17,786 nt of DNA from a virus, in the UHGV virus genome UHGV-0019208; one strand, written 5' to 3'. Positions 7,592 to 7,933 of this stretch are shown in pieces. Made by a program: the position numbers and the translations under genes. The notes under the pieces are model-generated. The model saw only the letters and a program-made list of their open reading frames with translations, was not told the origin of the DNA and searched no databases. Position 1 is the stretch's first letter, and every line of letters starts with the position of its first letter.

Positions 7592-7780
7592 TCAACTGAT
7601 GACATCCATTGAGCGGTTGTATTCGTGGGTTCTGATTTTTGCCATGAGTTCATCTGTCAGTTCAGAAACCCACTGCAAAGCCAGCCCCTTCTCTTCATCA
7701 CTACACTCACTAGCCGCTACAAGCTTAAGAAAAAAATCAATGCGCTGGAGCTTCAAAGACTCCAAAAAATAGTCCTGCAT
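7592..7780 (-). CDS. Small hypothetical protein (62 aa), first gene downstream of a LexA box; candidate SOS-inducible antirepressor at the position of 186 tum
   Basis: ATG (complement of 7780..7778) preceded by GGAGG with a 4-nt spacer. Product MQDYFLESLKLQRIDFFLKLVAASECSDEEKGLALQWVSELTDELMAKIRTHEYNRSMDVIS. The track ORF 7592..7882 extends upstream across the LexA box. Confidence 0.55.
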   Translation of the reverse strand: MQDYFLESLKLQRIDFFLKLVAASECSDEEKGLALQWVSELTDELMAKIRTHEYNRSMDVIS

Positions 7781-7823
7781 CTTTCCTCCTATGACACCAC
7801 AAGCAATACTGTATACATAACCA

Positions 7824-7839
7824 CTGTTTATATTTACAG
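7824..7839. promoter_or_regulatory. LexA (SOS) box, CTGT-N8-ACAG
   Basis: ctgtttatatttacag at 7824..7839 in an AT-rich promoter-like region just upstream of the 62-aa / DinI-like pair. A degenerate second half-site lies nearby (ctgtatacataacc, 7809..7822). Confidence 0.6.
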
Positions 7840-7933
7840 TATATAATAATCTTACTGATGTAAAACGTTTTTTTACGTTCATCAGCCTGATATGTCTGGT
7901 ATTATTAAGAGCACGAATTGTTAACCCGCGTAA

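What the first reader, a model, noticed from the sequence alone, without database searches (positions are those of the whole stretch)
7592..7850. LexA-box-controlled 62-aa ORF plus DinI-like gene: candidate SOS antirepressor module
A consensus CTGT-N8-ACAG box (7824..7839) sits in a promoter-like AT-rich stretch directly upstream of a strongly initiated 62-aa ORF and a DinI homologue. In phage 186 the LexA-repressed operon at this genome position encodes the Tum antirepressor, which inactivates CI on DNA damage. The 62-aa protein is much shorter than 186 Tum (146 aa) and I do not recognise it, so it may be a distinct small antirepressor.
Basis: partly seen in the sequence, partly recalled or inferred. 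Interest (0 to 1): 0.55.

Follow-up and report, generated by a model that had tools for sequence, protein, structure and literature searches.

The report
Split Tum antirepressor operon, LexA-controlled
This is the DNA-damage switch of a Fels-2/186-type prophage: a LexA-repressed promoter drives a 62-aa antirepressor (the N-terminal half of phage 186 Tum as a separate gene) and a DinI-like gene, an arrangement already described for Fels-2 and PSP3, so it is real but ordinary.

Summary
On the minus strand, after replication gene A, lie a LexA box (7839..7824), a 62-aa ORF with a strong Shine-Dalgarno sequence (7780..7592) and a 77-aa DinI-family gene (7581..7348). The box overlaps the -10 of a TTTACA-N17-TACTGT promoter. 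This is the architecture annotated for the LexA-repressed p95 promoter of phage 186, and it recurs in nine related phages whose spacers differ.

The 62-aa protein is not a distinct antirepressor. Profile comparison aligns its residues 1-43 in register with residues 1-43 of 186 Tum (hhalign 95.9%, E 6.4e-9). It is 61/62 identical to Fels-2 STM2728. The DinI-like protein aligns with Tum residues 71-145. The literature already states that Fels-2 and PSP3 carry tum split in two by a stop codon, and that the upstream PSP3 gene is the antirepressor. The window also encodes a 186-type CI, the presumed target.

Three details are additions:
- A second, overlapping SOS box (7824..7809) makes the operator resemble the double boxes upstream of colicin R and pesticin genes.
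- Identical TumA occurs alongside CI repressors only 38-44% identical to the window's.
- No Pfam or NCBIfam model covers this domain, and the eight listed E. coli records call it "hypothetical protein"; the module occurs in 1125 of 5426 complete E. coli genomes.

Verdict: already known, low interest.

The parts
7854..7886 (-). Hairpin between the stop of replication gene A (7934) and the tum promoter. It is probably a terminator or insulator for read-through from the early lytic operon. Its 3' arm contains the -35 hexamer.
   Evidence: RNA fold -12 kcal/mol, z = -4.05, 0 of 200 shuffles fold as well. Lemire 2011 reports terminator-like palindromes before the LexA boxes of Gifsy prophages. The hairpin is not conserved in SopEPhi or YpM_MLG42.
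7836..7864 (-). Sigma-70-type promoter equivalent to 186 p95: -35 TTTACA (7864..7859), 17-nt spacer, -10 TACTGT (7841..7836).
   Evidence: The 186 record annotates p95 with its -10 hexamer at the first six bases of the LexA site; the -35 reads TTCACA with an 18-nt spacer. In 9 phages the -35 (TTTACA, TTCACA or TTCCCA), the 17/18-nt spacing and TACTGT are kept while the spacer sequence varies. The generic promoter scan missed it because TACTGT matches TATAAT at only 3 of 6 positions.
7822..7841 (-). LexA (SOS) box 1, TACTGTAAATATAAACAGTG. Its core CTGT-N8-ACAG is at 7839..7824 and it overlaps the -10 hexamer.
7809..7824 (+). LexA box 2, imperfect: CTGTATACATAACCAC on the plus strand. It shares one base (7824) with box 1. 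Together the two boxes form a 37-nt operator of the double type found upstream of colicin R and pesticin genes.
   Evidence: The window operator TACTGTAAATATAAACAGTGGTTATGTATACAGTATT aligns with TACTGTACATAAAAACAGTGGTTTTATGTACAGTATT upstream of pesticin pst and with TACTGTACATAAAACCAGTGGTTATGTGTACAGTATT upstream of colicin R cra. Box 2 is kept in all five Fels-2-type phages compared and is absent from 186, PSP3 and the ESSI-2 types.
7592..7780 (-). tumA-like gene: a 62-aa homologue of the N-terminal (antirepressor) half of 186 Tum, with SD AGGAGG at 7790..7785.
   Evidence: phrog_698 3.6e-38. 61/62 identical to Fels-2 STM2728. hhalign against the Tum N-terminal family gives 95.9%, E 6.4e-9. 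186 Tum(1-70) hits phrog_698 at 6.7e-6. The AF2 model is a two-helix hairpin, pLDDT 89.8.
7348..7581 (-). tumB / DinI-like gene, 77 aa. Its SD GAGGTG (7593..7588) overlaps the tumA stop codon and the intergenic gap is 10 nt, so translational coupling is likely.
   Evidence: Pfam PF06183 7e-23. 40% identical to 186 Tum residues 71-145. The 186 record annotates a nested Tum product from an internal GTG at the equivalent position (77 aa, 'modulates SOS induction'). PSP3 tumB is annotated 'similar to dinI and 3' end of 186 tum'.
7304..7346 (-). Hairpin just after the DinI-like stop codon, possibly the operon terminator (the counterpart of 186 t95a). It also marks the border of the variable cargo region.
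   Evidence: RNA fold -20 kcal/mol, z = -2.3, with a T-poor tail. Homology to Klebsiella and Salmonella relatives ends at query position 611, which is window 7350.
13693..14325 (+). 186-type CI immunity repressor (210 aa), the presumed target of the antirepressor.
   Evidence: Pfam Phage_CI_repr 5.5e-31 and Phage_CI_C 9.2e-28. Matches the solved 186 CI structure 2FJR at 3.7e-27.

Best explanation
This is the SOS induction operon of a Fels-2-like (186-type, P2-family) prophage, in the split form of tum. In a lysogen, LexA is proposed to bind the operator that covers the -10 hexamer of a p95-type promoter (box 1, probably helped by the overlapping weaker box 2) and keep the operon off. DNA damage activates RecA, LexA cleaves itself, and the promoter fires. 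It makes a bicistronic mRNA for the 62-aa TumA and, probably by translational coupling, the 77-aa DinI-like TumB. TumA, predicted to be a helical hairpin, binds the prophage's 186-type CI repressor and titrates it off its operators without cleaving it. This derepresses the early lytic promoter and induces the prophage. The DinI-like protein is an accessory that probably modulates RecA filament activity and the SOS response; it is not the antirepressor itself. Shown here: the sequence elements, their conservation, the homologies, and the presence of the CI target. Taken from published work on 186, PSP3 and Fels-2: LexA repression, CI binding by sequestration, and the lethality of lexA null mutations caused by Fels-2. 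Inferred: box 2 function, translational coupling, and the DinI role.
For: The gene order A, LexA-box promoter, small ORF, DinI-like gene on one strand is the same as in Fels-2, PSP3 and, in fused form, 186. The LexA box is unique in the window and matches the 20-mer consensus with 3 mismatches, which 0 of 200 shuffles reach. The promoter architecture matches the annotated 186 p95 and is conserved in 9 phages despite divergent spacers. The 62-aa protein is homologous to Tum residues 1-43 (hhalign 95.9%, E 6.4e-9; reciprocal PHROG hits). E7, R13 and C26 are 90% or more conserved in both families, and position 40 is acidic in both (E in the 62-aa family, E or D in the Tum family). The DinI-like protein corresponds to the Tum C-terminal half (Pfam). 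A 186-type CI is present. ESSI-2-type phages keep the LexA box and the TumA-like ORF but have no DinI gene, which suggests that the small ORF is the essential part. Literature: Tum is a LexA-repressed anti-CI factor that sequesters CI (PMC7708051). [quoted passage not shown] 186, PSP3, Fels-2 and SopEPhi are UV-inducible owing to tum (PMC2771037).
Against: There is no direct experiment on this sequence. I found no published direct assay of the Fels-2-type 62-aa protein as a CI binder; the PSP3 result is a personal communication cited second-hand, and PSP3 TumA belongs to a different PHROG from this protein. BLASTP finds no similarity to 186 Tum or PSP3 TumA, so the homology rests on profiles and is about 17% identity. 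Identical TumA is found with very different CI proteins, which is unexpected for a specific repressor/antirepressor pair. TACTGT is a weak -10 hexamer and no transcription start is known for this phage.
Confidence: 0.85

Rival explanations
1. The DinI-like protein, not the 62-aa protein, is the antirepressor or the main effector of induction. The small ORF would be an accessory or leader peptide.
For: DinI-family proteins are the recognisable, well-conserved part of the operon. The PHROG that contains 186 Tum is named after DinI.
Against: The 186 record gives 'inhibits CI DNA binding' only for full-length Tum; the nested C-terminal DinI-like products are annotated 'modulates SOS induction'. 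ESSI-2-type phages have the LexA box and the small ORF but no DinI gene. In PSP3 the upstream gene carries antirepressor activity, and non-polar dinI deletions in Gifsy prophages did not affect induction (PMC3121763).
Confidence: 0.06
2. The 62-aa ORF is a LexA-controlled accessory gene with another role, such as a toxin, a cell-division inhibitor or an anti-defence factor. The similarity to Tum would be too weak to carry function.
For: BLASTP finds no similarity. No Pfam or NCBIfam family matches. The fold is a generic helical hairpin with no significant PDB match. TumA does not co-vary with CI.
Against: The profile-profile match is in register from residue 1 and the same positions are conserved in both families. 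Genomic position and promoter are identical to 186 and PSP3 tum. Fels-2, whose protein is 98% identical, causes lexA-null lethality through prophage induction.
Confidence: 0.06
3. The module is a decayed, non-functional tum: a stop codon broke the fused gene and the prophage is no longer SOS-inducible.
For: Relative to 186 the reading frame is interrupted. From my recollection of the abstract of Bunny et al. 2002, which I could not retrieve, LT2 prophages are not strongly UV-inducible.
Against: Both halves have their own start codon and Shine-Dalgarno sequence. The split form occurs in 1125 of 5426 complete E. coli genomes at mostly 95-99% DNA identity. It is found across Salmonella, Klebsiella, Yersinia and Cronobacter phages. 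There are 66 protein clusters at 50% identity, mostly stand-alone proteins of about 60-70 aa. Split versions of the 186-type N-terminal half also exist and are named 'Tum protein'. This pattern indicates purifying selection, not decay.
Confidence: 0.03

Closest known systems
Fels-2 STM2728 / STM2726.1 (split tum) of Salmonella Typhimurium LT2
   Same: Essentially the same element. The 62-aa protein is 61/62 identical and the DinI-like protein differs at one residue. DNA identity is 97.4% over query positions 1-611 (window 7960..7350). The promoter, both LexA boxes and the position after gpA are the same.
   Different: The CI repressor is only 57.6% identical. The cargo downstream differs: Fels-2 has an orf97-like gene, whereas the window has PD-T4-7 and a GmrSD-like gene.
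Coliphage 186 p95-tum operon (Tum, 146 aa)
   Same: A LexA box overlaps a TACTGT -10 hexamer, the position after gene A is the same, and the N-terminal antirepressor domain plus DinI-like domain are both present. The mechanism is CI sequestration.
   Different: In 186 the two domains are fused in one polypeptide, with nested internal starts. It has one LexA box rather than two. The N-terminal domain is only about 17% identical, and orf97 follows tum.
PSP3 tumA / tumB
   Same: The same split into a roughly 60-aa upstream gene and a 77-aa DinI-like gene behind a LexA box. The upstream gene is reported to be the antirepressor.
   Different: PSP3 TumA belongs to phrog_1993 and the window protein to phrog_698. 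The window protein hits phrog_1993 only at E 0.002. PSP3 has a single LexA box.
Gifsy-1/2/3 LexA-controlled dinI-antirepressor (gfoA/gftA) operons; N15 AntC
   Same: A LexA-repressed operon encodes a small antirepressor that binds a non-cleavable repressor, together with a DinI homologue (PMC3121763).
   Different: The gene order is reversed (dinI first), the phage type is lambdoid and the repressor family is different. Sequence relationship to GfoA/GftA was not tested here.
Double overlapping SOS boxes of colicin and pesticin promoters
   Same: The 37-nt operator aligns nearly base for base with the sequences upstream of pst and cra. In colicin genes two LexA dimers bind such overlapping boxes and prevent untimely expression of a lethal function (PMC2994835, PMC4482635).
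   Different: Here box 1 overlaps the -10 hexamer itself. In the colicin R (cra) sequence I read a TTGACA-N17-TAGCTT promoter just upstream of the boxes; this is my reading of the sequence and is not annotated. The regulated product is an antirepressor, not a toxin.

Membership tests
186-type Tum SOS antirepressor operon (split tumA/tumB form) | Lies directly downstream of replication gene A, on the same strand, in a P2/186-family genome | tested here: met
   gpA at 10348..7934 (Pfam Phage_GPA 1e-127), followed by the operon at 7864..7348 on the minus strand. The order is the same in Fels-2, 186 and PSP3.
186-type Tum SOS antirepressor operon (split tumA/tumB form) | LexA box overlapping the -10 of the operon promoter (p95 architecture) | tested here: met
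   TTTACA-N17-TACTGT with the 20-mer TACTGTAAATATAAACAGTG, compared with the annotated 186 p95. Conserved in 9 phages.
186-type Tum SOS antirepressor operon (split tumA/tumB form) | Protein homologous to the N-terminal half of Tum | tested here: met
   hhalign 95.9%, E 6.4e-9, residues 1-43 to 1-43. Reciprocal PHROG hits. BLASTP alone is negative.
186-type Tum SOS antirepressor operon (split tumA/tumB form) | DinI-like C-terminal half, fused or as the next gene | tested here: met
   Pfam DinI 7e-23. 40% identity to Tum residues 71-145, E 1e-23.
186-type Tum SOS antirepressor operon (split tumA/tumB form) | Cognate 186-type CI repressor in the same genome | tested here: met
   ORF 13693..14325 carries PF07022 and PF16452 and matches 2FJR at 3.7e-27. 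CII (CP76) and int are alongside.
186-type Tum SOS antirepressor operon (split tumA/tumB form) | The protein binds CI and blocks operator binding; expression induces the prophage | not testable with these tools
   Known for 186 Tum (PMC7708051) and reported second-hand for PSP3 TumA (PMC3121763). Not shown for this protein.
186-type Tum SOS antirepressor operon (split tumA/tumB form) | LexA binds the operator; transcription is SOS-inducible | not testable with these tools
   Supported only by sequence and by the Fels-2 lexA-null lethality reported in the literature.
DinI family (PF06183) | Match to the family profile above the curated threshold over the full domain | tested here: met
   81.2 bits against a cut-off of 24.2, profile positions 1-63 of 63. 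The score is below the NCBIfam equivalog cut-off for chromosomal DinI (41.8 against 111), so it is a family member and not the host DinI orthologue.
Colicin-type double overlapping SOS operator | Two LexA boxes sharing one base, the second with a degenerate half-site (CAGTGG junction) | tested here: met
   Alignment with the pst and cra upstream regions. Conserved in 5 of 5 Fels-2-type phages.
Colicin-type double overlapping SOS operator | Occupancy by two LexA dimers | not testable with these tools
   Shown by footprinting for colicin E8 (PMC4482635), not for this operator.
Gifsy-type antirepressors (GfoA/GftA) | Sequence homology to GfoA/GftA | not tested
   No GfoA/GftA sequence was fetched. 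Only the functional analogy is claimed.

The most novel reading that the evidence does not exclude
The Fels-2-type TumA may be a cross-reactive antirepressor. The identical 62-aa protein occurs in phages whose 186-type CI is only 38-44% identical overall to the window's CI, and only the CI N-terminal DNA-binding domain is comparatively conserved (58-67% against 29-36% for the C-terminal domain). TumA might recognise that conserved domain and therefore co-induce co-resident Fels-2-like prophages that carry different CI repressors. E. coli genomes carry up to three copies of the module. The double SOS operator would keep this shared trigger tightly off.
Probability: 0.3. Interest if true: 0.4.

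Novelty: already known. Interest (0 to 1): 0.15.

Why it matters
The module decides when a very common family of enterobacterial prophages switches to lytic growth after DNA damage; it is present in about a fifth of complete E. coli genomes. The biology is already established for 186, PSP3 and Fels-2, so the finding adds no new principle. There are two practical points. First, the antirepressor half has no Pfam or NCBIfam model, and the eight listed E. coli records call it "hypothetical protein", so an HMM for the Tum N-terminal domain would fix the annotation of this gene in the more than a thousand E. coli genomes that carry the module. Second, identical TumA paired with divergent CI repressors raises a testable question about cross-induction among co-resident P2-family prophages.

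Tried and rejected
- BLASTP of the 62-aa protein against 186 Tum and PSP3 TumA found nothing. PSP3 TumA against 186 Tum also found nothing, so BLASTP is simply too insensitive for these short helical proteins. Profile methods were needed.
- Pfam, NCBIfam, PADLOC and PDB sequence searches of the 62-aa protein gave no hit.
- A Foldseek search of the AF2 model against the PDB gave only generic helical hairpins, all with E above 2, and was uninformative.
- An exhaustive phmmer search of 1.84 billion representatives returned 66 clusters, mostly short stand-alone proteins of about 60-70 aa. It reached none of the fused 146-aa Tum proteins.
- The generic promoter scan found no promoter because TACTGT is a poor match to TATAAT. 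The comparison with the annotated 186 p95 replaced it.
- The 96-aa extended ORF (ATG 7882) was rejected.
- The names "levan regulatory protein" and "levan regulatory domain protein" given in some records have no support in any profile search and were rejected.
- Bunny et al. 2002 (PMC151935) and Gillor et al. 2008 (PMC2729051) are not held in the library. Their content is cited only through papers that quote them, or marked as my recollection.
- The Rfam and tRNA scans of the window were empty.
- A heterology index for the LexA boxes was not computed because I had no reliable frequency matrix.

Full report
**What is in the sequence.**
The window is part of a P2/186-family prophage of the Fels-2 type. 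The early lytic operon runs on the minus strand: CII (CP76 family, 13298..12789), a Dam-type methylase (11274..10345) and the replication protein gpA (10348..7934; Pfam Phage_GPA 1e-127). The plus strand carries a 186-type CI repressor (13693..14325) and an integrase (14327..15343).

Downstream of gpA, still on the minus strand, lie these elements in order:
- a hairpin at 7886..7854;
- an AT-rich promoter region containing CTGT-N8-ACAG at 7839..7824;
- a 62-aa ORF (ATG 7780, stop 7592) behind an AGGAGG Shine-Dalgarno sequence;
- ten bases later, a 77-aa ORF (7581..7348) whose Shine-Dalgarno sequence overlaps the preceding stop codon;
- a second hairpin at 7346..7304.

**Is the LexA box more than chance?**
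The 16-mer occurs once in the window. On its own this is weak evidence: 0.20 matches are expected and 35 of 200 shuffles give at least one. The 20-mer TACTGTAAATATAAACAGTG is within 3 mismatches of the LexA consensus, which no shuffle reached.

The decisive evidence is comparative. I extracted the region upstream of the homologous small ORF in Fels-2, SopEPhi, a Yersinia phage, a Klebsiella phage, two ESSI-2-type phages, PSP3 and 186. Every one has TACTG-N10-CAG preceded by TTTACA, TTCACA or TTCCCA at 17 or 18 nt, while the spacer sequences are unrelated. In the 186 record this arrangement is annotated as the SOS-dependent promoter p95, with the -10 hexamer (TACTGT) forming the first six bases of the LexA site. 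The window promoter is therefore TTTACA (7864..7859), N17, TACTGT (7841..7836), with LexA box 1 on top of the -10.

**A second box.**
Directly after box 1 the Fels-2-type phages keep CAGTGGTTAT-N4-ACAGTA. Read on the plus strand this is CTGTATACATAACCAC (7809..7824), a LexA box with one degenerate half that shares base 7824 with box 1.

A search of plasmids with the 71-nt promoter region hit small mobilizable plasmids and Yersinia pestis pPCP1. The two hits whose annotation shows a downstream gene lie immediately upstream of, and in the same orientation as, the pesticin and colicin R genes. The 37-nt operators align almost base for base. A third hit, on a small Salmonella plasmid, has no annotated gene downstream of the match.

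[quoted passage not shown] 186, PSP3 and the ESSI-2 types have only box 1. I infer, but cannot show, that the double box gives tighter and later SOS induction of this operon.

**What the 62-aa protein is.**
It has no Pfam, NCBIfam, PADLOC or PDB sequence match. It belongs to phrog_698 (3.6e-38) and also hits phrog_8554 (2.4e-8) and phrog_1993 (2e-3). It is 61/62 identical to Fels-2 STM2728.

The PSP3 record annotates the gene at this position as tumA ("similar to 5' end 186 tum; UV induction of prophage") and the next gene as tumB ("similar to dinI and 3' end of 186 tum"). BLASTP sees no similarity between the window protein and 186 Tum or PSP3 TumA. It also sees none between PSP3 TumA and 186 Tum, so that negative result carries little weight.

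Profile methods do link them:
- The first 70 residues of 186 Tum hit phrog_1993 (2e-23, the PSP3 TumA family), phrog_8554 (3e-12) and phrog_698 (6.7e-6, residues 7-44 to profile 7-44).
- I aligned 30 diverse members of the 62-aa family, taken from an exhaustive search that found 66 clusters, and 16 Tum N-terminal sequences.
- hhalign aligns the two profiles with 95.9% probability and E 6.4e-9, residues 1-43 to 1-43, with no gap.
- E7, R13 and C26 are 90% or more conserved in both families, and position 40 is acidic in both (E in the 62-aa family, E or D in the Tum family).

AlphaFold2 predicts a two-helix hairpin (helices 2-23 and 28-61, pLDDT 89.8) with C26 in the turn. This fold is too generic for a structure search to be informative.

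The longer 96-aa reading frame that many gene callers choose is not real. It would run through the promoter, and it contains in-frame stops in SopEPhi, PSP3 and the ESSI-2 types.

**The DinI-like gene.**
It matches Pfam DinI at 7e-23 and is 40% identical to residues 71-145 of 186 Tum. The 186 record annotates a nested 77-aa product from an internal GTG at the equivalent point, described as modulating SOS induction. Only full-length Tum is described as inhibiting CI DNA binding. So the window carries the two halves of Tum as two adjacent genes.

**What is already published.**
- Lemire et al. 2011 state that Tum looks like a fusion of an antirepressor and DinI. [quoted passage not shown] 2002) (PMC3121763).
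- 186, PSP3, Fels-2 and SopEPhi are described as UV-inducible because of tum (PMC2771037).
- For 186, Tum is made from the LexA-regulated p95 promoter and inactivates CI by sequestration (PMC7708051).
- From memory, the Bunny et al. abstract says the Fels-2 tum homologue itself was responsible for the lethality. I could not retrieve that paper.

**Mechanism.**
The best-supported explanation is therefore the 186 mechanism in two-gene form. LexA holds the promoter shut. SOS induction releases it. TumA binds the 186-type CI, which is present in the window and matches the 2FJR structure at 3.7e-27, and titrates it off its operators. The DinI-like protein is an accessory acting on RecA or the SOS response.

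Support for TumA as the active part comes from three sources: the 186 annotation, the PSP3 report, and the ESSI-2-type phages. Those phages keep the LexA box and the small ORF but have no DinI gene.

**An observation I cannot explain.**
The 62-aa protein is 100% identical in phages whose CI differs greatly from the window's:

| Phage | TumA identity | CI identity, overall | CI N-terminal domain | CI C-terminal domain |
|---|---|---|---|---|
| vB_EcoM-813R9 | 100% | 43.7% | 66.7% | 36.0% |
| 4LV2017 | 100% | 40.4% | 58.3% | 33.0% |
| ST11-OXA245phi3.1 | 100% | 38.3% | 62.5% | 29.0% |
| Fels-2 | 98.4% | 57.6% | 75.0% | 54.0% |
| YpM_MLG42 (Yersinia) | 83.9% | 87.1% | 98.6% | 84.0% |

So the antirepressor and the repressor do not co-vary within this group.

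Either TumA recognises the conserved part of the N-terminal domain and cross-reacts between these phages, or some of these prophages are poorly inducible. This is the only part of the locus with some open interest, and it needs experiments.

**Prevalence and annotation.**
The 661-bp module is present in 1125 of 5426 complete E. coli genomes, mostly at 95-99% identity, with up to three copies per genome. The eight records listed annotate the small gene as "hypothetical protein". The best E. coli identity is 98.0% and the best Klebsiella phage identity is 98.4%, so the window itself is not one of those records.

**Verdict.**
The suggestion of a distinct antirepressor is wrong: this is the known split-tum operon of Fels-2-type phages. 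Novelty: already known. Interest: low.

Noticed in passing
window 3800..7173: The variable region between the tum operon and the portal gene carries two anti-phage defence genes. One is a PD-T4-7 homologue (6115..7173, plus strand; PADLOC 2.8e-144). The other is a GmrSD/HEC-06 type IV restriction-like gene (5581..3800, minus strand; Pfam GmrSD_N 2e-32 and GmrSD_C 1e-11). Homology to Fels-2 and Klebsiella relatives stops exactly at the DinI-like stop codon (7350). Fels-2 and 186 have orf97 there instead.
   Followed up: partly
window 15358..17564: Just beyond the P2-type integrase (14327..15343) lie an unassigned 216-aa ORF (15358..16008) and a second, P4-type integrase with an Arm-DNA-binding domain (16191..17564). 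This may be a neighbouring integrated island. No tRNA gene is present in the window.
   Followed up: no
L014 (Klebsiella phage 4LV2017) and L015 (ST11-OXA245phi3.1), CI reading frames: In these phages the CI reading frame contains two tandem copies of the N-terminal helix-turn-helix domain ahead of the C-terminal domain. Both reading frames run to the edge of the sequence fetched, so the true start codon is unclear.
   Followed up: no
L005 (Escherichia phage ESSI2_ev015) 1020..1413; L006 (Cronobacter phage ESSI-2) 1020..1400: These phages have the LexA box, the p95-type promoter and a TumA-like ORF (41-49% identical) after gpA, but no DinI-like gene. In the Cronobacter ESSI-2 record the small ORF is not annotated at all.
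   Followed up: partly
window 7592..7780 and its homologues: Neither Pfam nor NCBIfam has a model for the Tum N-terminal antirepressor domain. The eight listed E. coli genome records (module present in 1125 complete genomes) call the gene 'hypothetical protein', some records call it 'levan regulatory protein' without support, and gene callers often extend it to 87-101 aa through the promoter.
   Followed up: yes
window 7854..7886: A well-folding hairpin (z = -4.05) lies between gpA and the tum promoter, and its 3' arm includes the -35 hexamer. It is present in Fels-2 but not in SopEPhi or the Yersinia phage, so it is probably a lineage-specific terminator for read-through from gene A.
   Followed up: partly
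window 10345..11274: A D12-class Dam-type adenine methyltransferase gene overlaps the start of gpA, as in Fels-2 (STM2730, retron Ec67-like Dam).
   Followed up: no
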